A stretch of DNA of 64,000 nt, taken from sequence record ON286973; one strand, given 5' to 3'. The position numbers and the translations under genes were made by a program. This stretch comes from Escherichia phage A51.2. Below the pieces are notes generated by a model that had not been told where the DNA came from, ran no database searches, and saw only the letters and a program-made list of their open reading frames with translations. Shown in pieces: positions 43,929-56,468 of this stretch (within the stretch, counting starts at the first letter, position 1; every line of letters starts with the position of its first letter).

Positions 43929-44240
43929 TTATACGGTCCGATCATTGGCCTTTGTCCAGGACCTGGCGATCCGTTTCCCGGTCACCTGGAACGGAGACTG
44001 CATTGTGTGTAATGAGTCCAGCGTAAGGGAGGACCGTTTACGGCGTATCTTCAGGATCGCTAACGTATTGTCCATCTCACGGCCAGGCCCTGGGCGGTAT
44101 GGTGTGCCTCCAGCGTTAAGGTTGATGATCTCATGTATTGAGATCCGGCGTTGTTTTGCTTCCGCATCTTTGAAGATAGCCAGCGGAGGCGCTATGCGTT
44201 GCCGATACCAATCTAAAACGGTTGGCGTAATAGCGATCAT
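43929..44240 (-). CDS. Hypothetical protein
   Basis: ORF; ATGA overlap with the upstream minus gene supports co-translation. Confidence 0.3.
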   Translation of the reverse strand: MIAITPTVLDWYRQRIAPPLAIFKDAEAKQRRISIHEIINLNAGGTPYRPGPGREMDNTLAILKIRRKRSSLTLDSLHTMQSPFQVTGKRIARSWTKANDRTV

Positions 44241-44428
44241 ATTTTACCCCCTATGTAGTCCGGTCGGTTTTTCTCTGTCATGCGCTTTAGCAATTCTTGC
44301 ATGTTACTTATGGCTTGTAGTGTATCCCCTTCCAGGCTTGAATCAACATAATCAGGATCGTCTATGACCTTTCTATGATTATGATAACGCAGTACTGCTA
44401 ATACCTTTCTAACTTGTTCGATATTCAT
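44237..44428 (-). CDS. Hypothetical protein
   Basis: ORF. Confidence 0.35.
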   Translation of the reverse strand: MNIEQVRKVLAVLRYHNHRKVIDDPDYVDSSLEGDTLQAISNMQELLKRMTEKNRPDYIGGKI

Positions 44429-44577
44429 TTTTACCGCTCTTTAAAACAAGGTGCCAACCGTTTCCAATAGATCACTGACCATCAGGACAATACTGATCAG
44501 CACATGCCTAACCATAAGGGGAAAGAGCGCCAGCGATCCCGCCACAATCCCCAAGGTGATGATTATCTTTCTCATGG

Positions 44578-44862
44578 TTAACGGTTTACGTAAGCTTTAC
44601 CGTTTACGGTGATGGGCAGATCTTCCAGGTCTGGATCTTCCTTAAGGTCGCGAGCAAGCTCACCGCACCGGATACCCTCGAATCCGTAGTACTCTGTTGT
44701 GCCGTCATTAAAAGTTTTAGCGGCAAGGCATAAGCGATAAGTAACCCCGATTTGATTGACGGCATGAATATCCGTTAGATTAACCTCTTTTGCCAGCTCT
44801 TTAGCCATTACAGGCGCATTAAGTCCAACAACCAGGGCAACCACTGCGATCATCTTTTTCAT
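44578..44862 (-). CDS. Secreted/periplasmic small protein with signal peptide
   Basis: MKKMIAVVALVVGLNAPVMA signal-peptide-like N-terminus. Confidence 0.45.
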   Translation of the reverse strand: MKKMIAVVALVVGLNAPVMAKELAKEVNLTDIHAVNQIGVTYRLCLAAKTFNDGTTEYYGFEGIRCGELARDLKEDPDLEDLPITVNGKAYVNR

Positions 44863-44953
44863 TGTGTCTATCCTCTTTCTGCTACGTTTAAGGCGGCGGT
44901 AACCGCCTGTTTATGCTTTGTTGGTTAATTTTCGGGTATCGGTATAAATTAAA

Positions 44954-45178
44954 CTATGCTGTACGCTCAACTATAACAACGGTTTGAGGGATCTCACCTT
45001 CCACCACTATCAAGGCCTTTTTCTGCGTGATGGATATCTTTACCCGTTGCAGCGTGGCGGTGAAGTCTTTCATTTCGTCACGTGGTGTTTTAGTGCAATA
45101 CCAGATCTCAGGCTTGCCGACCTGCAAGCCGCGCAAGAATTCCGTTTTACCTGTTTTATTCGTGATCATTTGATTCAC
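44954..45178 (-). CDS. Hypothetical protein
   Basis: ORF. Confidence 0.35.
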   Translation of the reverse strand: MNQMITNKTGKTEFLRGLQVGKPEIWYCTKTPRDEMKDFTATLQRVKISITQKKALIVVEGEIPQTVVIVERTA

Positions 45179-45182
45179 CTTA

Positions 45183-45286
45183 ACCGATACCGTGGGAAGA
45201 TAGGATCATGTTAGCCATAGTTGCAACCCATCCAACCGATAATGCCAGGCCAACTACTACAACCGTGAAAATTTTCTCTAACATGA
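45183..45286 (-). CDS. Small membrane peptide, about 34 aa (MLEKIFTVVVVGLALSVGWVATMANMILSSHGIG)
   Basis: Micro-ORF with one transmembrane segment; coordinates approximate. Confidence 0.25.
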
Positions 45287-45361
45287 TTCTACCCTCATTA
45301 ATGGCGGGAAGTATTCCCGCGCTATGTAGTACACTTTACCAGATTGTTGACTGTTGTCAAA

Positions 45362-45589
45362 CTAATTTTTACAAGGGATCAGTAAACTTCTTGCTACTGC
45401 TTCGCGTAGTCCTTGACTTTTTATCAGATCTATTGTTGCAGGATGGCAAGTAAAAGCCTTTGACCATTTTTGATCCCCTGGTTTACGGGCAAAAATGTAA
45501 ACTTCCCCGTCGATTTCATCCCAACGAGTATTGCTTGTTAGTTTTTTAAGCGCCATGATGATCTCTCTTTTAGTTGTGAGCGGCATCAT
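45362..45589 (-). CDS. Hypothetical protein
   Basis: ORF. Confidence 0.4.
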   Translation of the reverse strand: MMPLTTKREIIMALKKLTSNTRWDEIDGEVYIFARKPGDQKWSKAFTCHPATIDLIKSQGLREAVARSLLIPCKN

Positions 45590-45641
45590 TGCCGCCCTAC
45601 GAAATACATTCTACCCGATTTACAATTGTTGTCAAACTATT

Positions 45642-45821
45642 TTAACGATAATCATCATATGCTTTATTGACCTGGCGAATATAACATTCAAAAGCTAGAT
45701 CAATAGATTTATATTCACGGATATATTCACCATAGGAAACCACATACATTTCTATAGCTTCCTCATATGCGAGGAGAATAGAATCTAAGCCTACGATCTC
45801 AGTCTTTGCAATAATAGCCAT
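45642..45821 (-). CDS. Hypothetical protein, 59 aa
   Basis: ORF below track cutoff; RBS AAAGAGGA. Confidence 0.3.
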   Translation of the reverse strand: MAIIAKTEIVGLDSILLAYEEAIEMYVVSYGEYIREYKSIDLAFECYIRQVNKAYDDYR

Positions 45822-45895
45822 GATTTTTATCCTCTTTGTGGTTGGTGGGGCTTGTTGCCCCTTTGATTTATATTCTACAGTCTTATAAGGTCATG

Positions 45896-46129
45896 TCAAC
45901 TATTTTCAAAAAATTTTTCTGCTGTAATATTTTTCCCGGTAGGGTTCGCTACTTTCAAAATTTTATCATGCACTGGACGCCCAAAAGAATAAGCGCCGTA
46001 CACAGTGCACCAATAATCGCCGTCAGGCTGTACTATTACAGCCGCATAGGGTACGCCTTTTTCGTTTTTGCTGACAAAATAGATCACGTTGCCATTAATA
46101 GCCTCGGCGCGTTTAATTTGTTCCATCAT
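45896..46129 (-). CDS. Hypothetical protein
   Basis: ORF; AAGAGAGG RBS. Confidence 0.4.
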   Translation of the reverse strand: MMEQIKRAEAINGNVIYFVSKNEKGVPYAAVIVQPDGDYWCTVYGAYSFGRPVHDKILKVANPTGKNITAEKFFENS

Positions 46130-46185
46130 GATGATTTGCCTCTCTTTATTTTCATAATTGGGGGGCCTTTTCGGCCCCGCCAGGT

Positions 46186-46470
46186 TTATTTATTGATAGC
46201 GTGCAGCGGGAAAGGTACGCCAGGTTGATAGATAACTTTTACAACCTCATCAGAGCAAAAGAAATTACAGAATTCGCCCTGATAAGCCTCATCCTCTTTT
46301 AATTCTTCATCAACATACTCAAAAAAGTAGTCAACACTTGGATAATCTTGCCCTGGGTTATAGTCAACCATTGTCAGGACCAGTTCAAGATCGTTGCGTA
46401 GGATATGCATACCCGCTTTTAAGTATTTTGCTTCCATTTCTACTACATCGCCAGCGGTAACAATAGCCAT
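46186..46470 (-). CDS. Hypothetical acidic protein
   Basis: ORF; AGGAG RBS. Confidence 0.4.
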   Translation of the reverse strand: MAIVTAGDVVEMEAKYLKAGMHILRNDLELVLTMVDYNPGQDYPSVDYFFEYVDEELKEDEAYQGEFCNFFCSDEVVKVIYQPGVPFPLHAINK

Positions 46471-46526
46471 GGTTTTAACTCCTATCTATCCGGTTAATGA
46501 TTGGGGGCCGCCCCCCGACACGTCCT

Positions 46527-46554
46527 ATTATCCATATTGTAGGGCTTGATGCAA
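46527..46554 (-). promoter_or_regulatory. Sigma70-like promoter on minus strand, TTGCAT-16bp-GATAAT, within the conserved element TATTATCCATATTG
   Basis: Read directly; second copy at 47694-47721. Confidence 0.5.
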
Positions 46555-46672
46555 GTACTTCTTTAAAAAATTTTTTAAGCGCCTTGGGGGTAGCTGTAAC
46601 GCTAAAATAATAAAGGCCATGCAACCGCATAGCCTTTATGTGATTATATCGCTGCAGGCCCTGCTAGGGGCC

Positions 46673-47023
46673 TTATTTTGCATTCTTGCTTGTATTGCCG
46701 CCACGGTACCAACGTTTGCGGTGAAAATGGTAATAATCACCCTCGGCATTGAACATCAGATGATTTTCAATAACCAGCTTACGAAGGTGGGCCGGATCTT
46801 GTTCCATTCTTGCCAGATTCCGGCTGTTGTTACGTAAGCGGATAAATTCCATATTCAGGCCGTTGATTGCAGCATGGATGTCAAAGTAACCACCTTTGAG
46901 ACGTTCACGCATGGCGTTAAGCTCAACACAATATACAGATTTCTCACAAATCAAGGTATTAGCCAGGGCGCGGACCTGGGCAAGGGGGTTAAGCTCATTA
47001 AGGTAATATAGTTTTACTTTCAT
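46673..47023 (-). CDS. Hypothetical protein
   Basis: ORF. Confidence 0.4.
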   Translation of the reverse strand: MKVKLYYLNELNPLAQVRALANTLICEKSVYCVELNAMRERLKGGYFDIHAAINGLNMEFIRLRNNSRNLARMEQDPAHLRKLVIENHLMFNAEGDYYHFHRKRWYRGGNTSKNAK

Positions 47024-47040
47024 AAAATCACCTGCTGAAA

Positions 47041-47349
47041 TTAGTTTGAGAAAACATCGTTCACAATAGCGATCACAATGCCGCCCACCTTGTCACGGTC
47101 AACAATGCACAAATCACCATAGATCATGTGGTAGTCTGGATGATCTTTCACAGAATAGTCAATAAGTGTTTTCTTGTCGTCCAGCTTCGTAACTTCCATT
47201 CTCATAACGATATGAGAATCATCAAAGGCATTATTCCGGAAAGTCATAGCCTGACCACCAGGGCACCCGGTGATCTCCACTTCCACACCATCTACGATCT
47301 GACCATCAAAGAAATAAAGATTATTAGCCTGGATAAACATGTCTATCAC
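47041..47349 (-). CDS. Hypothetical protein
   Basis: ORF. Confidence 0.4.
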   Translation of the reverse strand: MIDMFIQANNLYFFDGQIVDGVEVEITGCPGGQAMTFRNNAFDDSHIVMRMEVTKLDDKKTLIDYSVKDHPDYHMIYGDLCIVDRDKVGGIVIAIVNDVFSN

Positions 47350-47384
47350 TCCTTGTTAACTGCGTGGTATTTTAACAGGGTTTA

Positions 47385-47432
47385 AATTTACTTTATCGAT
47401 GGCCCTGAAGTCAAGGCCATCTAAAAATAAAT
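47385..47432 (-). promoter_or_regulatory. Conserved roughly 44-bp intergenic element TTTACTTTATCGATGGCCCTGAAGTCAAGGCCATCTAAAAATAA (copy 1 of 3); hairpin GATGGCC/GGCCATC; promoter-like on the minus strand
   Basis: Read directly; near-identical copies at 51125-51169 and 51746-51792. Confidence 0.55.
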
Positions 47433-47433
47433 T

Positions 47434-47634
47434 TTACAGGCCTACAATCTCTTTGATTCGTTTAACTGCTGCCTCAGCGCCTTGGGGGTAGAAATTATGA
47501 TAACCAATCACGCGAGTGATACTAATCGCCGTTTGATGATCTTCATAGTCGCCCTTGAAGATTTCTTGACCGTCAATCAGCACGGCAATTTTTTCTTCTT
47601 TTTTGAAGTTAATAACGCGGATATTGTTGCTCAT
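47434..47634 (-). CDS. Hypothetical protein
   Basis: ORF. Confidence 0.4.
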   Translation of the reverse strand: MSNNIRVINFKKEEKIAVLIDGQEIFKGDYEDHQTAISITRVIGYHNFYPQGAEAAVKRIKEIVGL

Positions 47635-47693
47635 CTTCTTTCTCCTCTTCGGGCTTTTGTTTGTGTGGTGGGGATGTTTCCCCGTTGATTGTT

Positions 47694-47721
47694 ATTATCC
47701 ATATTGCGGACCGGATTGCAA
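47694..47721 (-). promoter_or_regulatory. Sigma70-like promoter on minus strand, TTGCAA-16bp-GATAAT (second copy of the TATTATCCATATTG element)
   Basis: Read directly. Confidence 0.5.
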
Positions 47722-47778
47722 CACCCTGAAAGGGAAATTTTTTAAAAAGATAGGCCCCCATGATCGGGGGCCGTTCTT

Positions 47779-47892
47779 AGTTACTTACAGCGATAAAGTA
47801 CATCCCTACGCCTAGCAATATTTCAAGGGCGATGATCTCAAGCCATACCATAACCCGGCGCGCCTTATCGGTACGGGGCTTATCCTTGGTTG
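47779..47892 (-). CDS. Small membrane peptide, about 37 aa
   Basis: Micro-ORF with hydrophobic C-terminal half. Confidence 0.25.
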
Positions 47893-48138
47893 TCATCGTC
47901 TCCCCCTTTCTTCCTGGTAGTAGTGACGTGGTTTACAATGGCCCCCAGGAGTACCATCACCACGCACATCCCAAGAAAAATTATCTCCGCTGTTGTTCGG
48001 TCCATTGTTATAAAATTCCTCAAGATCAGGCTTGAAAATAAAGCGTTCGTTATTGAATCCATCACGCCAGGCGGCTGGATTCAAATCTTCACTAAAGGGA
48101 TTAATTAACGTGGCATTATTTAAACGGTTGGCCCACAT
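47893..48138 (-). CDS. Hypothetical protein
   Basis: ORF; start refined to ATG 48138 after GAGAGGAA; alternative overlapping frame 47880..48065 not excluded. Confidence 0.3.
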   Translation of the reverse strand: MWANRLNNATLINPFSEDLNPAAWRDGFNNERFIFKPDLEEFYNNGPNNSGDNFSWDVRGDGTPGGHCKPRHYYQEERGRR

Positions 48139-48487
48139 ATTTTCTATTCCTCTCAAATAGGCGATCCGCCTCAGTTAAACATATCTCATGGGCTTGATCT
48201 CTGGTTTTAGCCTCATCGAAAACTTGTTGTGCCAGGCTGCAGCGTAGGGAGACTGGAAGATCACTATAATAGGCGTTGACAAACGTTTGAGCGTCGTACA
48301 GGTCTGAAAATACTTTACCCTTTCTATTATTCCCCTTGTCAACAATTGCAAGGATAACCAATACAATAGTTGCAACCACTCCCAGGAAAATAGATATAAC
48401 AAACCATAGAAAAGCGGATCTACCCATCTTGCCAGCGATCCAGGCGTTGAACAAGGCAACTACTACAGCCAAAATAATAAATTCCAT
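48116..48487 (-). CDS. Membrane protein (two transmembrane segments)
   Basis: MEFIILAVVVALFNAWIAG ... FLWFVISIFLGVVATIVLVILAIV; start refined to ATG 48487. Confidence 0.45.
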   Translation of the reverse strand: MEFIILAVVVALFNAWIAGKMGRSAFLWFVISIFLGVVATIVLVILAIVDKGNNRKGKVFSDLYDAQTFVNAYYSDLPVSLRCSLAQQVFDEAKTRDQAHEICLTEADRLFERNRKYVGQPFK

Positions 48488-48551
48488 TCTATGTACCTCT
48501 TTTGCAGTTCTGTTTAACAATAAGGCGGCAAATATGCCGCCTGTTACCTGA

Positions 48552-48932
48552 TTAAAAATTATCGCCGTAAATCTTTCCGCTTTCTGCCCACACCACCACG
48601 CGGGGCATGTTATCCCATACGTCTTGTTTTAGATTTAACGCGTGCAATTCTTCTGTGGTGCTCATACCAGGCACGGGCTGATTGTATACTGCAAAACGAC
48701 CACCTGCATAATCATAAGCTAAAGTCAAATCGCACTGAATCATTTTCTTGATCATGGCGTTGAGCATAGCATTAGCCGCATATTGATCACGTTTTAAAGG
48801 CAACTCTTTGATTAGTTTGCGATAGTTTTCAATGTGATCGCACACTGTTTCACGTGGAAGATCTTTCATATCCTCGCGAAAGGTAACCAGGTTAAACATA
48901 ACGGTGTCAATAGCTTTAGTAGTGTTTTTCAT
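48552..48932 (-). CDS. Hypothetical protein
   Basis: ORF; start refined to ATG 48932. Confidence 0.4.
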   Translation of the reverse strand: MKNTTKAIDTVMFNLVTFREDMKDLPRETVCDHIENYRKLIKELPLKRDQYAANAMLNAMIKKMIQCDLTLAYDYAGGRFAVYNQPVPGMSTTEELHALNLKQDVWDNMPRVVVWAESGKIYGDNF

Positions 48933-49021
48933 GATGTTTTCCTCTTTGTTTTGTGTGGGGCAAGTCATCTCGCCCCTTGAGTTTTAATATAGCAGGTTTT
49001 TAAATTATTGCAACACTTTAT

Positions 49022-49645
49022 TTATGAAAAACTCATCTCACCATATTCATCTACATCAAACCGCCAATCATTGGCTTCAATAAGGCCGATCAGGTTTTCG
49101 GTAGTAAACTGTTCAAGATAGGCCTCCTCAAGGTCTACATAAACCTTGCGGGATAGCTCCCGTACCGTCTCGGTGATCAGCTCTTCCAGATCTTCCACTT
49201 TATTTTCTTGTTTTGCGGTCAGATCTAGCCAGGTAGTATCAATATATCCGCTTACAGTGTTTTCATGGCTGTAATGGCTGTACTTGTCGCGTTCAACACT
49301 GGCTGATAGTTCGCCATCGTGCATTGTGCCGAACAAGTGACGAATTGATCGGAACTTGGTCAGGGCCTTGACTTTACGCAAGAATTTCTCTAAGTCTACA
49401 TTTTCAGCACTAATTGACGCGCCATCGCCTTGACACCAAAAGCCGGACCAATGTACATCGGTATCTTCAAGGCCGTACTCTGGAAAAACCTGTTCTTTAT
49501 AGTATTCAATTACACTTTCTGCAAAAAAGTTATCCCCGCTGTGTTCTTCTCTTTCGCGGACCATTTCAATAGCTTTTTCTTTTTGTTCGTCGGTCAGCAC
49601 GTCGAAAGATAAATTGTAACCTGTGGTAATGTTAACGGTGGTCAT
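49022..49645 (-). CDS. Hypothetical acidic protein
   Basis: 207-aa ORF. Confidence 0.45.
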   Translation of the reverse strand: MTTVNITTGYNLSFDVLTDEQKEKAIEMVREREEHSGDNFFAESVIEYYKEQVFPEYGLEDTDVHWSGFWCQGDGASISAENVDLEKFLRKVKALTKFRSIRHLFGTMHDGELSASVERDKYSHYSHENTVSGYIDTTWLDLTAKQENKVEDLEELITETVRELSRKVYVDLEEAYLEQFTTENLIGLIEANDWRFDVDEYGEMSFS

Positions 49646-49719
49646 GATATTTTCTCCTATTTTCTTTGTTAGTGGCGGGAAAACTTCCCGCCTGTGTGTT
49701 TAAGTATACTTATTGAGAT

Positions 49720-49980
49720 TTACTTGTCAACACTATTTTTTAAATTATTGTGGCGTAAAATGTTCAAGATCTCTTCAACGTCATCAACACGGCGGCAATT
49801 TTTAAACGCTACCAGTTGCCCCAGTATTTTAATCACTGGACGGCCTTGCCAGTGCCCTTGGAGAAAGCGAGCTTTAACTTTATCGGTGGAACTATCACGC
49901 CACCAAATGGCCTTGTTGTTGCAGTAGTAAAAATTATTCAGGACAACATCAACTTTATCAAAATTTTTTAATTTACGCAT
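49720..49980 (-). CDS. Hypothetical protein
   Basis: ORF. Confidence 0.4.
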   Translation of the reverse strand: MRKLKNFDKVDVVLNNFYYCNNKAIWWRDSSTDKVKARFLQGHWQGRPVIKILGQLVAFKNCRRVDDVEEILNILRHNNLKNSVDK

Positions 49981-50179
49981 GGCGTTTACTCCTTTCTCTC
50001 TTTGATGTGGTTAGTATAGCTAACCTGTTTAAGATGTCAAGCTTTAAATAAAATCACTATCAATGATATTTTTAACGCCATAAAACGGCCCTAAGCGATG
50101 TTTTCAGGTTAAAGGGGGCGATTGCATAGGTGGGGCCTTTTTGGCGCTTACAGGGCCAACCGGGGGCGCTATTCGTAGG

Positions 50180-50212
50180 ATAGAAATAAAAAGCCCCGCA
50201 CAATGGCGGGGC
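50180..50212 (-). terminator. Rho-independent terminator (minus-strand sense GCCCCGC-CAUUGU-GCGGGGC followed by UUUUUUAUUUC)
   Basis: Read directly, just downstream of the minus gene ending at 50221. Confidence 0.75.
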
Positions 50213-50220
50213 GTTGGTTG

Positions 50221-50418
50221 TTATTTGCCTTTGTGGCGGTATCGTTCCGCCTGTCGTTCACGTTCCAAAAGCAGGCCCGGTAATTTGCGATCATAATGAT
50301 TCCGCCAGATCTTCCCAAATCTTTTTGGCTTATTCAGTTTATTGTTGCGCTGGCGGCGTTCCGGCAGCTCTTCGGAAGCATGAGATCGCTTTACAATCTT
50401 CTCAAAATTAATCTTCAT
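50221..50418 (-). CDS. Small highly basic protein (Arg/Lys-rich)
   Basis: ORF; start refined to ATG 50418; nucleic-acid-binding character is inferred from composition only. Confidence 0.4.
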   Translation of the reverse strand: MKINFEKIVKRSHASEELPERRQRNNKLNKPKRFGKIWRNHYDRKLPGLLLERERQAERYRHKGK

Positions 50419-50761
50419 ATATTCCCCCCTTGCTAACTTCAATATTGGCCTGAATAGCCCGGATACGGCGCTTTATAACTTCCTGATCTGTGTGATCGTA
50501 TCCCCAAAAGTCTACGATTTTTGCGCCTCCAGCCTTTAGGCGGTATAGTGTTTCTTGCATCTTGTAAGCCGGGATCGGTCGCGGTGTTACCTGGTCGCCC
50601 TTCTCATTCTTGTACTTGATAATATAGTCTTCATTGTCGTTGAATACCCAAAACGGGTATTCTGTAAGGGCGTTGCTATCTTTTTCGTTTTTAGATTGGA
50701 TCTTGTTTACAATTAAAGCCGTAGCAATAGCGCCAATAATAAAACTTGCCCCGCTGATCAT
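50408..50761 (-). CDS. Membrane-anchored protein
   Basis: N-terminal transmembrane segment ISGASFIIGAIATALIV; start refined to ATG 50761 after AGGAG. Confidence 0.4.
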   Translation of the reverse strand: MISGASFIIGAIATALIVNKIQSKNEKDSNALTEYPFWVFNDNEDYIIKYKNEKGDQVTPRPIPAYKMQETLYRLKAGGAKIVDFWGYDHTDQEVIKRRIRAIQANIEVSKGGIYED

Positions 50762-50836
50762 GTACTTTCTCCTTTCATTGTATTGATAAACTATCTTTAT
50801 AGATGGCCCTGCTACCAGGACCACCGAAAAAACAGC

Positions 50837-51082
50837 TTATTTGACGATACCGACAAAACAGATCCCGCCTTCCCCTATATAGGCAATATCGGTAATTTTA
50901 TAATTTGTCAAGATCCGCGTGTTCAGATCATTAATAAAATCGGTCATCGCGTTGGTGTAGTTGTCTTCCGTGTCTAAGGCATAATCCCAGGTGTAAACCT
51001 TTTTACGTCCGAAGCCTTTTACCATGATACGGGCGCTTTTGGTGTTGGTAGGGGCATAATATTTGGTGATTAGTGCTGCCAT
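50837..51082 (-). CDS. Hypothetical protein
   Basis: ORF. Confidence 0.4.
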   Translation of the reverse strand: MAALITKYYAPTNTKSARIMVKGFGRKKVYTWDYALDTEDNYTNAMTDFINDLNTRILTNYKITDIAYIGEGGICFVGIVK

Positions 51083-51124
51083 GGTTTTAACTCCTCTGAA
51101 TTAGTTCAGTGTTAACAGTATAAA

Positions 51125-51169
51125 GTTTACTTTATTGATGGCCCTGGAGTCAAGGCCATCTAAAAATAA
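51125..51169 (-). promoter_or_regulatory. Conserved roughly 44-bp intergenic element (copy 2 of 3)
   Basis: Read directly. Confidence 0.55.
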
Positions 51170-51171
51170 TC

Positions 51172-51513
51172 TTACTCGTTTTCTTCCAGCTCCGCAAGCT
51201 CTTCTTTTGCTTCTTCTAACTCTGTCTGTAGTTCCTGGTATTCTTCATCTTCCTCAATATCCAGGCTGTCGATGTAGTCGCTAAATCCGCAGCGGTAAGC
51301 GATAGGATCTAGCTCCTTGAGGATACGCGACGGAAGAAAAGAAATGTTTCCGATCATAATTTCGCCGTAGATCTCGTCTAACCATTCATCATAGTTTTCG
51401 TCGTACTTGTCCTCGTCGATTTCAAAGTTATCGATCTTGTTCTCAAGGTCTGCGATCTGTTTTTTCAGCGCGGCGATCTGCATAGCTTTTTCTGCGGCGG
51501 TCATAGTAGTCAT
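51172..51513 (-). CDS. Acidic coiled-coil protein
   Basis: ORF. Confidence 0.4.
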   Translation of the reverse strand: MTTMTAAEKAMQIAALKKQIADLENKIDNFEIDEDKYDENYDEWLDEIYGEIMIGNISFLPSRILKELDPIAYRCGFSDYIDSLDIEEDEEYQELQTELEEAKEELAELEENE

Positions 51514-51745
51514 GGTGTTTTCTCCTTTTGTGTGCTCTGGGAAGTTTTCCCGTTTACGTGTTTAAGTATATCGATCTAAGTTAGTTTGTCAATTAAAAAT
51601 TTAAGAAAAATTTTGCAAAACTGTTAGCGCTACTCATTAACATTTGCGCCAGGATGTAACCGACAACGCAAACGATAATAGTTACCTTTGTGTATTGGCG
51701 TGTAGTGCTCATCTTAAAGCCCCCTTTTTTCGCTTAGTTGAGATT

Positions 51746-51792
51746 AGTTTACTTTATTGATGGCCCTGAAGTCAAGGCCATCTAAAAATAAA
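51746..51792 (-). promoter_or_regulatory. Conserved roughly 44-bp intergenic element (copy 3 of 3)
   Basis: Read directly. Confidence 0.55.
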
Positions 51793-51793
51793 C

Positions 51794-52198
51794 TTAGTAA
51801 GTTTTCAGTACTTTACCGTCCAACCTGTCAAGCTGGATCTCGATAGCTGCAGAAAACCTATTGTAAACCACATCGCCCATAGAATCCAACCAGTCTATGA
51901 TATTATACACTTGCTCTTTGTTCTTGCAGGTCCGGATCCGTTTCATGATGTAAGCCGGATCAATATTGGTACTCTCGTTGGTGTTCCCCTGTACCTGGTT
52001 TGCCGTATTAGTTACATCTTTAATGGCCTTTACCACCACCTGGAATGGCTTTAAGGTGCCTTTTGCGTTCATCTCACGCGCTTTTGCGGCGCGGTTGTTA
52101 TATGTTACACAACGGCGGCAAATGTTGATCAAATGCATGTCAATAATTTTTTCATCGTTTGCCAACTCGTTCATGATGCGGCGTACGTTCTTATTCAT
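51794..52198 (-). CDS. Hypothetical protein
   Basis: ORF. Confidence 0.4.
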   Translation of the reverse strand: MNKNVRRIMNELANDEKIIDMHLINICRRCVTYNNRAAKAREMNAKGTLKPFQVVVKAIKDVTNTANQVQGNTNESTNIDPAYIMKRIRTCKNKEQVYNIIDWLDSMGDVVYNRFSAAIEIQLDRLDGKVLKTY

Positions 52199-52286
52199 GA
52201 TCTTTTTCCTTTGTGCTGGCGGGAAACATTCCCGCCTTTTGTGTCTAGTTTACTTGAATTTTGCAGCGTGTCAATAATTTTTTTTT

Positions 52287-52685
52287 TTATTCGTGGGCAC
52301 ATGTTACAATGTGCTTTTTATAGCCTAGGTGGTCAGCAAGTGCTGACAAAAACTCTTCTTCGTAGATCCAGCCGTTGGCAGTGATCCCCATAGCATTTAA
52401 TGCGCTCTCAAGTGCTGCGTTAGCTTTATCATAACCGTGACCGCTCGCCTTGCCGCCAGTATAGCCGTACTTATTGTTCTTGTTGTCGTGTATCCAAAAA
52501 ACGCAGTAGTAAGTGTTCCCGCTGTCGGCGGCATAATACCGGATCTCAGCTACTTCGTGCAAATTATTGTCATCGTCCAGGCCCACCAGATTATAAGCCT
52601 TGTAAAATCCACGATCACGGCGGCAGTTCTTGACATCAGAAAAAGAAAAGTCTGCATTATCAAAATTAAAGGTAGTGGTTTTCAT
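52287..52685 (-). CDS. Hypothetical protein
   Basis: ORF. Confidence 0.4.
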   Translation of the reverse strand: MKTTTFNFDNADFSFSDVKNCRRDRGFYKAYNLVGLDDDNNLHEVAEIRYYAADSGNTYYCVFWIHDNKNNKYGYTGGKASGHGYDKANAALESALNAMGITANGWIYEEEFLSALADHLGYKKHIVTCAHE

Positions 52686-52749
52686 GATTTTATCCTCTTA
52701 GTGTCTTTTGTGCTTTTAGTGTATTTGGTGTCGGACTATATGTCAATAC

Positions 52750-52947
52750 TTATTTTTTATTAAACCAGTGGTTGATCTGACCTTTTGTCAGGGCGCAACG
52801 ATTAAGCTGTTGCAGGGTATAGCTATGACCGCGACGAAATTTATAAAGGCCTTGCCCGTTGTTGATGGTTACATCCACCCGGCAAATCACTTGATTGGTG
52901 ACCACCTGGCGAGTGTTGCGACGTACTTTGATCCCGTATGCGTTCAT
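52750..52947 (-). CDS. Small basic protein
   Basis: ORF; start refined to ATG 52947 after AGAGGA. Confidence 0.35.
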   Translation of the reverse strand: MNAYGIKVRRNTRQVVTNQVICRVDVTINNGQGLYKFRRGHSYTLQQLNRCALTKGQINHWFNKK

Positions 52948-53623
52948 AAATTTATCCTCTTTACTGGTTAGTGCGGTGTTGTTCACCTTGTAGGGTAATA
53001 ATACCATGATTAACCTTGTTGTCAACGACTATTTTAAATTATTTTTATGATAGAATCCACCTGCCGCCGCCCTGCCAGGTTAACCATCATTTTTTCGTAC
53101 TCTTCTTTATGTTCCAACGCTCCCGCCATGGCCTTTTCAACCAGGGCGATAGCCTCAGCGTCATTAATAGCTACATTTTCCAGGCTGGCCCCGCCAGGTT
53201 GCAGCGGTTAGCGCATCAGGTTAGAAAAATTTTTTGAAAAGTGTTGACAGCGGCCCCGCCAGGTGGCACAATATACCTATCGAAAGGACGGCAGGCACCG
53301 GTGACGGGGGAGACAACCACCGGGGATGGGCGCTGCATAAAATGAGAACGGTTATCATTATCATTTAAAAATTTATGCAAAAAATCCTTGCTTTCTTTGT
53401 CCTGTGTGATACTATAATAACAAGCCGGGGCAACAGGGGCCGGGAGACAATCACCGGGCCTGCCCGTTATTCTGCAAACGAGAATGATTATCATTCAAAA
53501 TTCTAAATGAGAACTCCTCGCATTTAATAAATTTAATTAGCACGCTAATTACCCTCCGTAACAATTTCCTATAAAACAGTATCCCATAAAATATTCCCGT
53601 ATAGAAATTTTAAAAATCCATTT

Positions 53624-53793
53624 CTGAAAACGAAAAATCGATTTCGTCCCCAAAAATTTTAGGCCAAGAGCCGGAGCGATTTCCAGAAAATCCGATTCAG
53701 AAAACGAAAAACAGATCGAGTACTGAGAAATTTATCGAGAAAAATTTTCAGAAAATTCAATCTTTGAAACGAAAAACAGATCGAGTACCTGGA
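53624..53793. repeat. Three tandem repeat units of about 70 bp, each containing GAAAACGAAAAA(C/T)(A/C)GAT ... (starts near 53624, 53696, 53764)
   Basis: Read directly; lies in an ORF-free island. Confidence 0.65.
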
Positions 53794-54099
53794 AAGCTGC
53801 ACCGCAACTTCAAGATAGTGGTTGGATTATTGCTATAAAAGGTCAAGGGTAAGTGGAGGAAGTTCTAGTAGCGAGATGTAAGCATGTGCGGGAAATCTAT
53901 AATGGTGGTCTGGAATATGGTGCAAACGGTAGGATGAGTGATTCAGCTTGTCGCGCCTACTCTGAAAAATCCATTTTAGTTTTCGATCCATTTTCTGATT
54001 TTCTAAGGATTTTAAAATATCCTGGCAGGTAAAATATCAAAAGGAGGAAATCCATTTTAGAAATCCTCCTGATCTCTGGCAACCTGATAACTTAAAATA

Positions 54100-54432
54100 T
54101 CAGGCTCCCAGTGTGTTCTTTCCTTTGTACAACCTTAAGGGTATAGTTTTTGTAACAGTCCATCTCCCCAGCCCTTCCCAGTTCCAGTTGTAGGCATGGT
54201 ACCCGGTTACGCATGCACTGCTAGAGTGGTCATAGGCATAAGAGAACGCTATACGCACCAAATGGAACCAGTCTTTCCACGGTTGTGGTCCGTAAGCTTT
54301 TCTCCAACACCGACACAAACTAAATGTCTCAAGAATAGGCAGGATAACAAATCCATACACCGCCACCAGAATAGCCAGCGCAATGATTGTCAGGAATACA
54401 TACCCTGCAGTTGAAACGATGATCTCTGTCAT
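54100..54432 (-). CDS. Membrane protein
   Basis: N-terminal transmembrane segment IVSTAGYVFLTIIALAILVAVYGFVILPIL. Confidence 0.4.
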   Translation of the reverse strand: MTEIIVSTAGYVFLTIIALAILVAVYGFVILPILETFSLCRCWRKAYGPQPWKDWFHLVRIAFSYAYDHSSSACVTGYHAYNWNWEGLGRWTVTKTIPLRLYKGKNTLGA

Positions 54433-54632
54433 TTGTCGTCCCCTTTCTTACGGATATAGATGTGAGAACCTGCCTGTATATAAATTTCTCGACCATCTTC
54501 TGCGAAGATGTGGAATACACGGTCACCTTCGTACTCAATACGAGATATCTTCATAATGGTCTTTCCACCTGGGATACGGATCTCGTCCCCCACAGCGATG
54601 TTCCATGCAGATTTAAGCTTAAACATCTGCAC
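54429..54632 (-). CDS. Hypothetical protein
   Basis: ORF. Confidence 0.4.
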   Translation of the reverse strand: MQMFKLKSAWNIAVGDEIRIPGGKTIMKISRIEYEGDRVFHIFAEDGREIYIQAGSHIYIRKKGDDK

Positions 54633-54864
54633 CCTCCTTTGGGAACTTGAACTCTGGCATAGCCATATACGCTACAACAGGGTTGTGATCAAAGTAGAAC
54701 TGACCGTTAATTATCCCGGTTTTGTCCACATAGTTACCAGATCCTGCAAGAACAACCTCGCAAGCTCCGAAATCTACATTGCCATCCTCATCAGCCATGG
54801 CTACGATATACTTTCCAAGAGGCATGTTTTTAACGCCGTCTACAAATGTCCACCCTTTGCTCAT
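54619..54864 (-). CDS. Hypothetical protein
   Basis: ORF. Confidence 0.4.
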   Translation of the reverse strand: MSKGWTFVDGVKNMPLGKYIVAMADEDGNVDFGACEVVLAGSGNYVDKTGIINGQFYFDHNPVVAYMAMPEFKFPKEGADV

Positions 54865-54884
54865 ACTTTATCTCCTGCGCTTTC

Positions 54885-55217
54885 TTAAGGTAACCAGTAA
54901 ACAATCTCGCCTTTCAGCTTCATGTCGTTTCCAACATAAATTTCCCAGCCATCCATCTTAGCAACTGTAGGCCCAAAGTCATCCGCACCCCTTACCTCTT
55001 TCCAGGCTCCGTAGTCAGGTTGCCAGATATAGAATCCACCTTCTTTGTCCCATGCTCCGTACACTACGTTTAACAGGTTTCCCATTGCAACAATGGTGGG
55101 CCGTGGGAATAATACATCTACAGATGCGCCACAATTTCGAGTATCTTTTAAGTTGCAATCCCAAAAGATGTCTGCCAGTGTGGCGGCGATAGCTTTACGT
55201 CTTTCCAATGTTACCAT
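54885..55217 (-). CDS. Hypothetical protein
   Basis: ORF. Confidence 0.4.
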   Translation of the reverse strand: MVTLERRKAIAATLADIFWDCNLKDTRNCGASVDVLFPRPTIVAMGNLLNVVYGAWDKEGGFYIWQPDYGAWKEVRGADDFGPTVAKMDGWEIYVGNDMKLKGEIVYWLP

Positions 55218-55227
55218 GGCACGATAC

Positions 55228-55419
55228 TCACTTGTTGTTAATAAGTTCTAAAACTTTCTGTCTTACTTTGTCAAGGTCTGTTGATTCAAAAACTGTGCGA
55301 TATCCCCAACTTTGCCCATAAGAGTGACTGCAATCCCCGTAGCACCATTGCTCAATTTGATAGTATTCAAGGAACGGGTGCTGTCTAACTATGATACCAT
55401 CCCGGTTAAAAATTACCAT
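55228..55419 (-). CDS. Hypothetical protein
   Basis: ORF. Confidence 0.35.
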   Translation of the reverse strand: MVIFNRDGIIVRQHPFLEYYQIEQWCYGDCSHSYGQSWGYRTVFESTDLDKVRQKVLELINNK

Positions 55420-55482
55420 AATACATCACTCTCTGTTAGTTTATGCATATATTATACACTGCAGTTTTCAGATGTCAATCTT

Positions 55483-55734
55483 TTACAGGTTACTCCAGTA
55501 TAATCGGCATTTACATTTTGGGCAATGAGGTTCTTTTATGTAATAACCATCAGTCTTTGGAACACTTTTTGGTGCAGTTTTAAGATTGTACCTGGTAAAA
55601 CATCGGAAGCAGGTTACCTCTCCAACCTGTTGATCGTTGATCCACTCACCAGAGTAAAGCTCTTTCTTGTTTCTCATAATTCTCTCCCAAATCCTCTGCA
55701 ATCTTATACCAAAATCTCCAGCCAGAAAGCACAC
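55483..55734 (-). CDS. Small zinc-ribbon protein
   Basis: CFRCF ... CPKCKC cysteine pairs. Confidence 0.4.
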   Translation of the reverse strand: MCFLAGDFGIRLQRIWERIMRNKKELYSGEWINDQQVGEVTCFRCFTRYNLKTAPKSVPKTDGYYIKEPHCPKCKCRLYWSNL

Positions 55735-55928
55735 GGGAACACTTTGAGGATTGAATCTTTACTTGGCTCGGAAGTTCTTTTTCCGTATGGTAGGTAGAAA
55801 TACCCTCCTGCAGATTCGAATATAGCTCCTTCGGTTGTATCTACCACAGCAAGAATTAAGATTTTAGTCTCCACAGTGCTCTCCTCTCTTAGTTGTTGTG
55901 GAGACTATATCACCTCAGAAGATGGTCG

Positions 55929-56468
55929 TCAACACTTTTTGTACTCTACTACAACCACATCAATATCTGTGGTTGCAAGATTAATTACATCTTCTACATG
56001 TTCCCACTTTAGACCGCCAATACCGCATCCAATTTTAGGAATGTAGAACGGCAATGACACACCTTTGAATACCTCGTTGACTCGCTCAAAACCTTTCATG
56101 ATTGAGAAGTATTCAGCATTGGGCCCTGGGTAGAACTGGGTATACAGGTTGATTCCATATACGACCCTGTTCTTGGCAAAATGCTCCCAACAAGAAAACA
56201 TACCCAGCTTGTCTAGATTACCATAAGCAGTTTCTTTGTCGGCTGCCAGTGCTTGAGGGAACTCACGGGCAATATCTTTCGCTATACCTGCACCCATTGT
56301 GTGAAAGCAGTTACAACCGTGGATCATGTGGCCTGACCCTTTCTTGAAAATGGAGATTAGATCTCCACCTACAGTATCAATAATCACGGTATGCCAGCTC
56401 CTCTTCCGCAATTTCAAAAAACTCAGTCCAGCACTGTGGCATATTGGAGTTGCCGAAGTGGCTTTCAT
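55929..56468 (-). CDS. Macro-domain protein (DarG-like ADP-ribosyl hydrolase fold, putative)
   Basis: GDLISIF ... HMIHGCNCFHTMGAGIAKDIAREFP fits the macro-domain GD ... H-x-C-N ... G-x-G-(I/V)-A pattern; start uncertain (ATG 56468 or GTG 56486) and overlaps the upstream ORF by over 90 nt. Confidence 0.55.
   Translation of the reverse strand: MKATSATPICHSAGLSFLKLRKRSWHTVIIDTVGGDLISIFKKGSGHMIHGCNCFHTMGAGIAKDIAREFPQALAADKETAYGNLDKLGMFSCWEHFAKNRVVYGINLYTQFYPGPNAEYFSIMKGFERVNEVFKGVSLPFYIPKIGCGIGGLKWEHVEDVINLATTDIDVVVVEYKKC

What the first reader, a model, noticed from the sequence alone, without database searches (positions are those of the whole stretch)
47385..51792. Three near-identical copies of a 44-bp hairpin-containing intergenic element, plus a second conserved promoter-like element
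TTTACTTTAT(C/T)GATGGCCCTG(A/G)AGTCAAGGCCATCTAAAAATAA occurs at 47385-47432, 51125-51169 and 51746-51792, with a degenerate copy near 50791-50819. Each lies between minus-strand genes, and read on the minus strand each contains TTGACT followed about 18 bp later by TAAA(C/T)T, with the hairpin GATGGCC/GGCCATC overlapping the -35. Separately, TATTATCCATATTG-containing elements at 46527-46554 and 47694-47721 give TTGCA(T/A)-16-GATAAT on the minus strand. These look like a phage-specific promoter family, possibly with an operator hairpin, defining a co-regulated set of small genes.
Basis: seen in the sequence. Interest (0 to 1): 0.55.

Follow-up and report, generated by a model that had tools for sequence, protein, structure and literature searches.

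The report
Repeated promoter-plus-RNA-hairpin cassette junction
In the small-gene region of this rV5-like E. coli phage, a 50-base repeat placed right after four genes encodes a conserved 20-base-pair RNA hairpin, three copies of which also carry host-type promoter boxes, and it marks where single genes are gained, lost and swapped between phages: a new example of a kind of element already known from T4-like phages.

Summary
There are three near-identical copies (47385-47435, 51124-51174, 51746-51796) and one diverged copy (50789-50839). All are intergenic on the minus (coding) strand, and chance expects none.

The window is an rV5-like phage (Vequintavirus). On the minus-strand RNA each copy starts at the upstream stop codon and folds into a two-tier hairpin: a 10-bp A/U lower stem, a 2x3 internal loop, a 10-bp G/C upper stem and a tetraloop.

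Across 68 copies from 19 genomes, 99% of pair cells are paired. There are 106 G·U pairs against 6 A·C, plus compensatory changes, so selection acts on the coding-strand RNA.

The diverged copy keeps the hairpin but has no promoter boxes. In the other three, TTGAC and TAAAYT stay invariant where neighbouring positions or pairing partners vary, so a moderate sigma70 promoter is probably embedded.

There is no U-tract, so it is not a canonical terminator. The architecture matches T7 early RNase III sites.

The repeats are recombination junctions. ECP32, ime and one metagenomic contig lack the 622 bp between two copies. A 474-bp promoter-gene-hairpin cassette ending at the element sits in KKE7M, a phage of another subfamily.

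The closest known kind is the PeSL cassette of T4-like phages. Moderate interest.

The parts
51746..51794 (-). Copy C, two-tier RNA hairpin. Lower stem 51794-51785 with 51755-51746. Upper stem 51782-51773 with 51768-51759. Loop ACUU. The first pair includes the last base of the stop codon of the 134-aa gene (TAA at 51796-51794).
   Evidence: Fold -25.0 kcal/mol, z -6.7. Covariance-model hit of 84.2 bits. Intergenic layout.
51124..51172 (-). Copy B, two-tier RNA hairpin directly after the 113-aa gene (stop codon 51174-51172). Loop ACUC. One A·A mismatch in the lower stem.
   Evidence: Fold -22.8 kcal/mol, z -5.2. 81.5 bits. This is the junction of the 474-bp cassette shared with KKE7M and of the 622-bp indel.
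47385..47433 (-). Copy A, two-tier RNA hairpin after the 66-aa gene (stop codon 47436-47434). The lower stem AAUUUA/UAAAUU differs from copy C on both sides of one pair (G-C to A-U).
   Evidence: Fold -26.3 kcal/mol, z -5.3. 81.5 bits. Pair counts.
50786..50840 (-). Diverged copy after the 81-aa gene (stop codon 50839-50837). Same architecture, with a 13-bp lower stem, 2x3 internal loop, 10-bp upper stem and loop GUAG. Four more G·U pairs than the other copies. No -35 or -10 boxes.
   Evidence: Fold -28.2 kcal/mol, z -7.5 on the minus strand, against -10.5 kcal/mol, z -1.5 on the plus strand. 75.1 bits. Compensatory C-G/U-A and G·U/A-U changes among orthologues.
51770..51775 (-). -35-like TTGACT of copy C. 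TTG lies in the upper stem and ACT in the loop. Equivalent sites: 51148-51153 (copy B) and 47409-47414 (copy A).
   Evidence: Promoter scan. TTGAC is invariant in 32 of 33 distinct sequences while the next two loop bases vary.
51746..51751 (-). -10-like TAAACT of copy C, which is the 3' strand of the lower stem. Equivalent sites: 51124-51129 (TAAACT, copy B) and 47385-47390 (TAAATT, copy A).
   Evidence: Promoter scan, 18-nt spacer, 9 of 12 matches. The 3' strand is kept even when its 5' partner mutates in copy B orthologues.
51565..51592 (-). Consensus sigma70 promoter TTGACA-16-TATACT (P192 in rV5), followed by a 5'UTR hairpin. It is the upstream end of the 474-bp cassette [promoter - 113-aa gene - copy B].
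   Evidence: rV5 annotation. Homology with KKE7M spans window 51120-51593.
47694..47721 (-). Second family, site 2: TTGCAA-16-GATAAT. An A-tract lies upstream and a GC hairpin (GGGGAAACAUCCCC) in the 5'UTR. It would drive the 66-aa gene that precedes copy A.
46527..46555 (-). Second family, site 1: TTGCAT-16-GATAAT, with an A/T tract upstream and a GC hairpin in the 5'UTR. It lies downstream of the terminator hairpins at 46610-46673.
   Evidence: The hexamers and A-tract are invariant in rV5, FFH2 and pangalan while the spacer varies.

Best explanation
The element is a composite intergenic cassette junction of rV5-like phages, of the same kind as the PeSL (promoter-early stem-loop) elements of T4-like phages.

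Shown:
- On the coding strand, each copy begins at the stop codon of the upstream gene and encodes a 20-bp two-tier RNA hairpin. It has a 10-bp A/U lower stem, a 2x3 internal loop, a 10-bp G/C upper stem and a tetraloop. Selection maintains it at the RNA level.
- The roughly 50-bp repeats are sites of homologous exchange, at which single-gene cassettes are deleted, inserted or moved to other phages.

Inferred:
- In three of the four copies the same DNA also carries a moderate sigma70 promoter. TTGAC sits at the top of the hairpin, TAAAYT is the 3' strand of the lower stem, the spacer is 18 bp, and a T-tract lies upstream. This promoter re-starts transcription for the downstream gene. Transcripts from it begin after the hairpin.
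- The hairpin therefore acts only on read-through RNA coming from the promoter of the upstream gene. It most likely defines and protects the 3' end of that gene's message.
- My preferred mechanism is RNase III-type processing, as at the T7 early intercistronic sites, which share this architecture and stop-codon placement. Partial attenuation is the alternative.
- The recurring unit is [sigma70 promoter - 5'UTR GC hairpin - one small ORF - two-tier hairpin].
For: RNA structure:
- Minus-strand folds are -22.8 to -28.2 kcal/mol (z -5.2 to -7.5) and have the same architecture in all four copies. Plus-strand folds are weaker (z -1.5 to -4.0).
- The four window copies are 98.8% paired, with 4 pairs changed on both sides.
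- In 68 copies (42 distinct) from 19 genomes there are 725 Watson-Crick, 106 G·U, 6 A·C and 3 other pair cells. Upper-stem cells were 100% paired in the 35-copy alignment.
- Sliding the 3' partners by 1-3 columns drops pairing to 33-57%.
- The diverged copy has no promoter boxes yet keeps the structure. Orthologue variants swap C-G for U-A and G·U for A-U.

Promoter:
- TTGACT-18-TAAAYT is present in three copies.
- Loop bases 1-2 (AC) are invariant while bases 3-4 take many values. TAAACT is retained despite mismatches created by changes in the 5' strand.
- In KKE7M the element is followed 11 nt later by a GC 5'UTR hairpin, a Shine-Dalgarno sequence and ATG, as consensus promoters are in the window.

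Not a canonical terminator:
- There is no U-tract, and the terminator scan does not call the elements, although it finds canonical terminators nearby at 50212, 48542, 47772 and 46639.
- The promoter-less copy is followed by two genes before the next terminator, so it must allow read-through.

Likeness to T7:
- The T7 early intergenic hairpins fold into a lower stem, an internal loop, a 9-10-bp G/C upper stem and a 4-5-nt loop. They start at the upstream stop codon.

Recombination:
- ECP32, ime and IMG/VR contig L010 have one chimeric element, with the upstream flank of copy C and the downstream flank of copy B. They lack the 622 bp in between.
- KKE7M (Justusliebigvirus, Stephanstirmvirinae) shares window 51120-51593 at 94.7% identity, and the homology ends inside the 3' lower stem.

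Distribution:
- There are four copies within 4.4 kb and none elsewhere in the window or in the other rV5 parts scanned (127-138 kb and 1-9 kb).

Known kind:
- The PeSL description is in PMC2839356, section 14.
Against: - No transcript data exist for any rV5-like phage in the libraries searched. Promoter activity, RNA 3' and 5' ends and RNase III cleavage are all untested.
- The promoter match is only 9 of 12 with a suboptimal 18-bp spacer, a level that is common by chance here (42 found against 25 expected).
- The near-invariance of the three main copies could owe something to gene conversion between copies rather than to selection on the boxes.
- The internal loop (2x3) is smaller than in T7 sites, and there is no sequence similarity to them.
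- The alignments used for pair counts were fitted to the model structure, which biases them towards pairing.
- The genomes compared are closely related (about 88-100% identical over this region), so many 'copies' are not independent.
Confidence: 0.6

Rival explanations
1. RNA element only. The hairpin is an intercistronic processing or stabilising site (RNase III-type, or a 3' exonuclease block), and the TTGACT/TAAAYT boxes are coincidental consequences of the stem and loop sequence.
For: All four copies share the hairpin but only three share the boxes. The match is 9 of 12 with an 18-bp spacer, a level frequent by chance. The lower stem has to be A/U-rich anyway, which makes -10-like hexamers easy to find.
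Against: Loop bases AC are invariant next to freely varying loop bases. The diverged copy shows that the RNA tolerates quite different loops (GUAG, GUGG, GUAA, GCUG, GUUG). TAAACT is retained at the cost of mismatches. The position relative to the 5'UTR hairpin and Shine-Dalgarno sequence in KKE7M is promoter-like.
Confidence: 0.22
2. Terminator/attenuator plus promoter, as proposed for PeSLs. The hairpin stops or damps RNA polymerase coming from upstream, and the embedded promoter re-starts transcription.
For: The stem-loop of PeSL211/210 reduced lacZ expression as much as a strong terminator (PMC2839356). The upper stem is a stable G/C hairpin placed at the end of a gene.
Against: No U-tract follows either stem: AAUAAAGUAAA follows the upper stem, and mixed sequence follows the lower stem. 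The terminator scan does not call it, and canonical U-tract terminators are used nearby. The promoter-less copy is followed by two genes that would then go unexpressed. The conserved second A/U stem and the fixed 10+10 geometry are not needed for termination.
Confidence: 0.2
3. One reading: a phage-specific promoter family whose palindrome GATGGCC/GGCCATC is a DNA operator for a dimeric regulator that co-regulates the downstream small genes.
For: The three copies are nearly identical, and the palindrome overlaps the -35 box.
Against: Pairing is strand-asymmetric: 106 G·U cells would be A·C mismatches in the other strand or in a symmetric operator. The structure extends into a second stem with compensatory changes. 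The diverged copy keeps pairing while changing 2 of 10 bases in one half-site only, and it lacks a promoter. The boxes are ordinary sigma70-type, not phage-specific.
Confidence: 0.08
4. A selfish or neutral dispersed repeat (MITE- or REP-like) spread by recombination, with no regulatory role.
For: It is short, palindromic, intergenic and associated with indels.
Against: Placement is constant: it starts at the stop codon and always lies on the coding strand. The stem geometry is constant across 68 copies. Structure is preserved by compensatory and G·U changes in a copy that has otherwise diverged. It is absent from 5,426 E. coli genomes. There are only four copies, all in one 4.4-kb stretch.
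Confidence: 0.05

Closest known systems
PeSLs (promoter-early stem-loops) of T4-like phages RB49/phi1, T4/PST and KVP40/nt-1 (Arbiol et al. 2010, PMC2839356; Comeau et al. 2014, PMC4122927)
   Same: Both are intergenic elements that run from the stop codon of the upstream gene to the Shine-Dalgarno sequence and start codon of the next. Both have an A+T-rich stretch upstream of sigma70-type -35 and -10 boxes, and a stable stem-loop that may overlap the -35 box and contains G-T pairs. Both are repeated in a hyperplastic region of small ORFans. Recombination between copies deletes or inserts the flanked ORFan, and cassettes are exchanged between phages (one search compared).
   Different: The host lineage is Vequintavirinae, not T4-like. 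The stem-loop is not a simple polyG/polyC hairpin but a 20-bp two-tier hairpin that encloses the whole promoter from the T-tract to the -10 box. It lacks a U-tract. One copy has lost the promoter but kept the RNA structure. There are only four copies of this sequence type. Promoter and terminator activities were measured for PeSLs but not here. No sequence comparison with RB49 PeSLs was made.
T7 early-region RNase III processing sites (R0.3, R0.5, R1, R1.1, R1.3; site names and cleavage role from my own knowledge of Dunn and Studier 1983)
   Same: Both are families of similar hairpins within one phage, placed in intercistronic gaps of host-polymerase early transcripts and starting at the upstream stop codon. 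Both have an A/U-rich lower stem, an internal loop, a 9-10-bp G/C-rich upper stem and a 4-5-nt loop (searches compared). Host-type promoters B and C lie in the same T7 gaps.
   Different: There is no sequence similarity. The internal loop here is 2x3 rather than about 4x5. Cleavage by RNase III is untested here. T7 sites are not reported as recombination junctions.
Rho-independent (intrinsic) terminators
   Same: A G/C-rich hairpin at the 3' end of a gene.
   Different: No U-tract follows the hairpin on either strand. Genes that depend on read-through follow the promoter-less copy.
Morons of lambdoid phages (a promoter-gene-terminator unit inserted between genes)
   Same: Self-contained single-gene expression cassettes. 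The 474-bp unit found in KKE7M is promoter + 5'UTR hairpin + ORF + 3' hairpin.
   Different: Here the cassette lies in the same orientation as its neighbours, and its ends are conserved repeats that can themselves recombine.

Membership tests
PeSL-type composite regulatory cassette | Intergenic, running from the upstream stop codon (in an A+T-rich context) to the Shine-Dalgarno sequence and start codon of the next gene | tested here: met
   All four copies start at the stop codon. The downstream ATG lies 26-43 nt after the hairpin and is preceded by a Shine-Dalgarno sequence.
PeSL-type composite regulatory cassette | Sigma70-like -35 and -10 boxes with an A+T-rich region upstream | tested here: inconclusive
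   TTGACT-18-TAAAYT with TTTATTTTTA upstream in three copies, at only 9 of 12 matches. The conservation pattern favours constraint on the boxes. The fourth copy has no boxes.
PeSL-type composite regulatory cassette | Stable stem-loop within or next to the promoter | tested here: met
   -22.8 to -28.2 kcal/mol, z -5.2 to -7.5. 99% of pair cells are paired in 42 distinct sequences.
PeSL-type composite regulatory cassette | Repeated, and concentrated in a hyperplastic region of small ORFans | tested here: met
   Four copies within 4.4 kb of small hypothetical genes. No other copy in the window or in the other rV5 parts scanned.
PeSL-type composite regulatory cassette | Recombination between copies produces indels of the flanked ORFans | tested here: met
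   A chimeric single element and loss of 622 bp in ECP32, ime and L010. The KKE7M cassette ends at the element.
PeSL-type composite regulatory cassette | Measured promoter and terminator/attenuator activity | not testable with these tools
   Needs reporter fusions or transcript mapping. No transcript-mapping study of a Vequintavirus was found.
Intrinsic terminator | G/C-rich hairpin immediately followed by a U-tract | tested here: not met
   The hairpin is present, but it is followed by AAUAAAGUAAA (after the upper stem) or by mixed sequence (after the lower stem). It is not called by the terminator scan, which finds four canonical sites nearby.
RNase III processing site (T7 early type) | About two helical turns of dsRNA interrupted by an internal loop, in an intercistronic gap of a polycistronic transcript | tested here: met
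   10 + 10 bp with a 2x3 internal loop, between co-oriented genes. T7 sites folded for comparison.
RNase III processing site (T7 early type) | Cleavage by RNase III at a defined bond, and rnc-dependent transcript ends | not testable with these tools
   A biochemical or genetic assay is required.
Any curated RNA family (Rfam 15) | Covariance-model match | tested here: not met
   No match at the elements at E up to 1 over 44000-56000.
E. coli REP/BIME-type chromosomal repeats | Copies present in host chromosomes | tested here: not met
   No blastn match in 5,426 complete E. coli genomes.

The most novel reading that the evidence does not exclude
The two-tier hairpin is a true RNase III-type processing signal that doubles, at the DNA level, as a host-type promoter and as a portable homology block. 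One 50-bp sequence would then give each small accessory gene a defined mRNA 3' end, re-start transcription for the next gene, and provide the crossover site by which promoter-gene-hairpin cassettes move between unrelated myovirus subfamilies (Vequintavirinae to Stephanstirmvirinae).
Probability: 0.3. Interest if true: 0.5.

Novelty: new member of a known kind. Interest (0 to 1): 0.35.

Why it matters
rV5-like phages are widely used as therapy and biocontrol candidates, yet their transcription signals have only been predicted by consensus searches. Neither the rV5 record nor the rV5 paper annotates this element.

Recognising it gives three practical benefits:
- It explains why closely related isolates differ by clean single-gene indels in this region.
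- It identifies natural cassette boundaries, useful for engineering or for tracing gene flow between phage subfamilies.
- It extends the PeSL idea of promoter/stem-loop junctions as vehicles of modular shuffling beyond the T4-like phages.

It also offers a compact test case for separating RNA-level from DNA-level constraint in one sequence, because one copy has lost the promoter but kept the hairpin.

Tried and rejected
- Canonical terminator: rejected, because no U-tract is present and the scan does not call it.
- DNA operator or cruciform: rejected on strand asymmetry of pairing.
- Known RNA family: Rfam gave nothing at E up to 1.
- Host-derived repeat: no match in E. coli genomes. The only PLSDB match is a 137.5-kb 'plasmid' that holds the element in three places and is the size of an rV5-like phage genome.
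- Wider distribution:
  - The covariance model found nothing in 40.6 kb of TH18, a Vequintavirinae phage not assigned to a genus.
  - It found nothing in rV5 at 127-138 kb or 1-9 kb.
  - An IMG/VR pattern scan gave only rV5-like contigs plus chance hits.
  - The single metagenome scan returned 102 stretches, 80 of which were listed and scanned with the model. Only rV5-like contigs (L041, L046, L055, L080, L101) matched.
  - No independent, more diverged lineage was therefore available for covariation analysis.
- Literature: no transcript-mapping study of a Vequintavirus was found. The Certrevirus CB7 paper reports only consensus sigma70 promoters.
- Single-stranded-DNA promoter (Frpo-like): considered and dropped, because the -35 box lies in the loop, not in a stem.
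- Not done: I did not fetch RB49 PeSL sequences for a direct sequence comparison. I scanned only part of one complete relative genome with the model; blastn shows three places per genome.

Full report
**What the window is.** The 6.5-kb region around the finding matches 132 phage records at mostly 90-96% identity. All are rV5-like Escherichia phages (Vequintavirus, Vequintavirinae), including several records mislabelled as Campylobacter phages. From about 40 kb to the end of the window the genes lie on the minus strand (GC skew; ORFs). In rV5 this is the block of small hypothetical ORFs 164-226.

**Check of the observation.** The repeat finder returns a four-member family: 47385-47435, 50789-50839, 51124-51174 and 51746-51796.
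- The 24-nt core occurs three times in the window. It occurred in none of 100 shuffles.
- The second motif is also present. CAATATGGATAATA occurs exactly twice, and the hexamers are TTGCAT or TTGCAA, 16 nt, then GATAAT.

**Anatomy.** I read the intergenic regions on the coding strand. Each copy begins at the stop codon of the upstream gene, and the last A of that codon is the first base pair.
- As RNA, each minus-strand copy folds into the same two-tier hairpin. It has a lower A/U stem of 10-13 bp, an internal loop of 2 nt on the 5' side and 3 nt on the 3' side, a G/C-rich upper stem of 10 bp, and a tetraloop.
- Fold energies are -22.8 to -28.2 kcal/mol, with z-scores of -5.2 to -7.5 against shuffles.
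- The plus strand folds clearly worse (z -1.5 to -4.0), because several pairs are G·U on the minus strand.
- The 'degenerate' copy folds best of all (-28.2 kcal/mol), although its sequence differs at 31% of positions and it has no TTGACT.

**Is the structure selected?**
- The four window copies are 98.8% paired, and four lower-stem pairs are changed on both sides: G-C/A-U, U-A/C-G, A-U/U-A and U-A/G·U.
- A covariance model built from them finds only these four sites in the 64-kb window, at 75-84 bits. The next best hit scores 14.6 bits. It finds the four orthologous sites in rV5.
- I collected 68 copies (42 distinct) from 19 phage genomes or contigs. Pair cells are 725 Watson-Crick, 106 G·U, 6 A·C and 3 other.
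- In the 35-copy alignment the upper stem is 100% paired, and every one-sided change there goes through G·U. Sliding the 3' partners by 1-3 columns drops pairing to 33-57%.
- The diverged copy exists as two alleles whose lower stems differ by C-G to U-A and G·U to A-U. One genome carries a U·G intermediate.
- The 106:6 ratio of G·U to A·C shows that the constraint acts on the minus-strand transcript, not on duplex DNA or the other strand.
- Caveats: the alignments were fitted to the model, and the genomes are closely related.

**Is there also a promoter?** A 9-of-12 match with an 18-bp spacer is weak evidence on its own. The scan finds 42 such sites in 12 kb against 25 expected. Three observations favour a real sigma70 promoter in the three main copies.
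- In 33 distinct main-copy sequences the loop bases 1-2 (AC, completing TTGAC) are invariant but for one sequence. Loop bases 3-4 take T/A/G/C and T/C. The diverged copy shows that the RNA tolerates quite different loops: GUAG, GUGG, GUAA, GCUG and GUUG.
- In orthologues of copy 51124 the 5' strand of the lower stem varies (GAT, ATT, GCT) and creates mismatches, but the 3' strand TAAACT never changes.
- In KKE7M the element is followed 11 nt later by a GC 5'UTR hairpin, a Shine-Dalgarno sequence and ATG. The consensus TTGACA-16-TATACT promoters of the window have this same layout.

I rate promoter activity at about 0.6. Transcripts from it would start downstream of the hairpin. The hairpin can therefore act only on read-through RNA from upstream.

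**What the hairpin does.**
- It is not a canonical intrinsic terminator. No U-tract follows either stem, and the scan does not call it, although it finds four canonical terminators on the same strand nearby: 50212, 48542, 47772 and 46639.
- The promoter-less copy is followed by two genes before the next terminator, so it must let polymerase through.
- Each of the three main copies follows the first gene after a predicted promoter. These are 52274 with the 134-aa gene, 51592 with the 113-aa gene, and 47721 with the 66-aa gene. The recurring unit is promoter - 5'UTR hairpin - ORF - two-tier hairpin.
- The 10+10-bp geometry with an internal loop, the constant stem lengths across 68 copies, the intercistronic position and the start at the stop codon match the T7 early RNase III sites. 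I folded those from the T7 record for comparison. For example, the gene 0.4/0.5 gap has an 8-bp lower stem that includes the UGA stop codon, an internal loop, a 10-bp G/C upper stem and a 5-nt loop.
- That these T7 hairpins are RNase III sites is established knowledge recalled from Dunn and Studier 1983. The record shown here does not annotate them.
- I therefore prefer processing and 3'-end stabilisation (about 0.35-0.4) over attenuation (about 0.2-0.25). Neither can be tested with these tools.

**Recombination.**
- In ECP32, ime and IMG/VR contig L010 a single chimeric element joins the upstream flank of copy 51746 to the downstream flank of copy 51124. The 622 bp between the two direct repeats are absent. 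That stretch holds the 39-aa gene, promoter P192 and the 113-aa gene.
- KKE7M is a Justusliebigvirus of the subfamily Stephanstirmvirinae. It shares window 51120-51593 at 94.7% identity. This is exactly promoter P192, the 5'UTR hairpin, the 113-aa gene and the element.
- The homology ends inside the 3' lower stem, and the flanks are unrelated.
- Among 121 phage records with the element, KKE7M is the only genuine match outside the rV5-like phages; one further record matched over only 20 nt at E = 0.4. KKE7M therefore probably acquired the cassette from an rV5-like phage.
- Four more short segments of the window recur in KKE7M in a different order.

**Comparison with known systems.** The anatomy and behaviour match the published description of PeSLs in RB49 and phi1. 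That description lists an upstream stop codon in an A+T-rich stretch, sigma70 boxes, and a stem-loop with G-T pairs that may overlap the -35 box. It also lists enrichment among ORFans and recombination between copies that excises ORFans (PMC2839356; PMC4122927).
- Differences: a different phage subfamily, a two-tier hairpin that encloses the whole promoter, no U-tract, and one copy that has lost the promoter.
- The rV5 genome paper predicted 33 consensus promoters and 20 terminators. The rV5 record annotates no regulatory feature at any of the four copies.
- No transcript-mapping study of the genus was found.
- Rfam has no match, and E. coli genomes have none.

**Second family.** The sites at 46527-46555 and 47694-47721 share TTGCAW, a 16-nt spacer ending in CAATATG, and GATAAT. 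Each has an upstream A-tract and a downstream GC 5'UTR hairpin, and each sits just after a terminator. In rV5, FFH2 and pangalan the hexamers and the A-tract are invariant while the spacer varies. These are likely ordinary sigma70 promoters.

**Verdict.**
- The element is real and under selection.
- It is a composite of a coding-strand RNA hairpin at the 3' end of a gene and a probable sigma70 promoter, and it serves as a recombination junction for single-gene cassettes.
- It is a new member of a known kind (PeSL-type cassettes, with a T7-like RNA hairpin).
- Interest is moderate at 0.35. A specialist would not be surprised, but the element is unannotated in a much-used phage group, and its dual RNA/DNA constraint can be tested cleanly.

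Noticed in passing
window 53262-53535 (minus strand): Two paralogous units of about 135 nt lie in a stretch without convincing ORFs; the rV5 paper marks a 'non-coding' box in its map, which may correspond. Each carries a Fur-box-like sequence. GATAATGATAACCGTTCTC at 53344-53362 matches the 19-nt consensus (recalled from memory) at 16 of 19. It is the only match in the window with 3 mismatches or fewer, and 4 of 100 shuffles had at least one. The second, TTGAATGATAATCATTCTC near 53480-53498, matches 15 of 19 by eye. Each is followed by a shared GC-rich segment CCGGTG(G/A)TTGTCTCCC. These may be iron-regulated small transcripts. Rfam gave nothing.
   Followed up: partly
window 53600-54060 (minus strand): Iteron-like short repeats lie in the same non-coding stretch: CTCGATCTGTTTTTCGTTT two to three times and AAAATGGATTT about five times. 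The repeat finder reports three 52-nt copies at 53605-53795. They could be an origin or a protein-binding array.
   Followed up: no
window 45303-45320, 49674-49692, 51537-51549, 52218-52236 (minus-strand 5'UTRs): Near-consensus promoters (TTGACA-16-TATACT or TTGACA-16-TAAACT) are followed about 10 nt later by a conserved GC hairpin (GGCGGGAAnnnTTCCCGCC or a variant), then ACAAAG and a Shine-Dalgarno sequence. This is a second PeSL-like repeat family, and its members bound segments shared with KKE7M.
   Followed up: partly
L029 (KKE7M, PQ356295) compared with window 44956-45833, 48566-48899 and 51120-51593: Five short segments of the window recur in this phage of another subfamily at 75-95% identity and in a different order, which suggests cassette-wise exchange between rV5-like and phi92-like phages.
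   Followed up: partly
L026 (rV5_ev146, LR699804) compared with window 51700-52212: This rV5-derived record lacks about 510 bp containing copy 51746 and the 134-aa gene, with a 10-nt overlap at the junction. Sequence beyond window 50271 is replaced by unrelated genes.
   Followed up: no
database records MG0656xx; CP057073.1: Seventeen to twenty-one records named 'Campylobacter phage' (host C. jejuni) are 94-100% identical to this E. coli phage type. MG065655 is 100% identical over 731 nt. A 137.5-kb E. coli 'plasmid' in PLSDB holds the 61-nt element in three places and has the size of an rV5-like phage genome, so it is probably one. These records are probably mislabelled.
   Followed up: no
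window 49022-49645 (minus strand, 207 aa): This small-gene-region protein has homologues at about 60% identity in E. coli jumbo phages (PBECO4-like). More distant ones occur in Klebsiella K64-1, where the gene is annotated 'YeeU-like antitoxin', and in Erwinia, Caulobacter and Bacillus phages.
   Followed up: no
L001 7657-7941 (rV5 record DQ832317, 116195-116479): The rV5 record annotates a 285-bp 'Rho-independent terminator' that coincides almost exactly with the ORF 196 CDS (116192-116476). This is probably a coordinate error in the deposited annotation.
   Followed up: no
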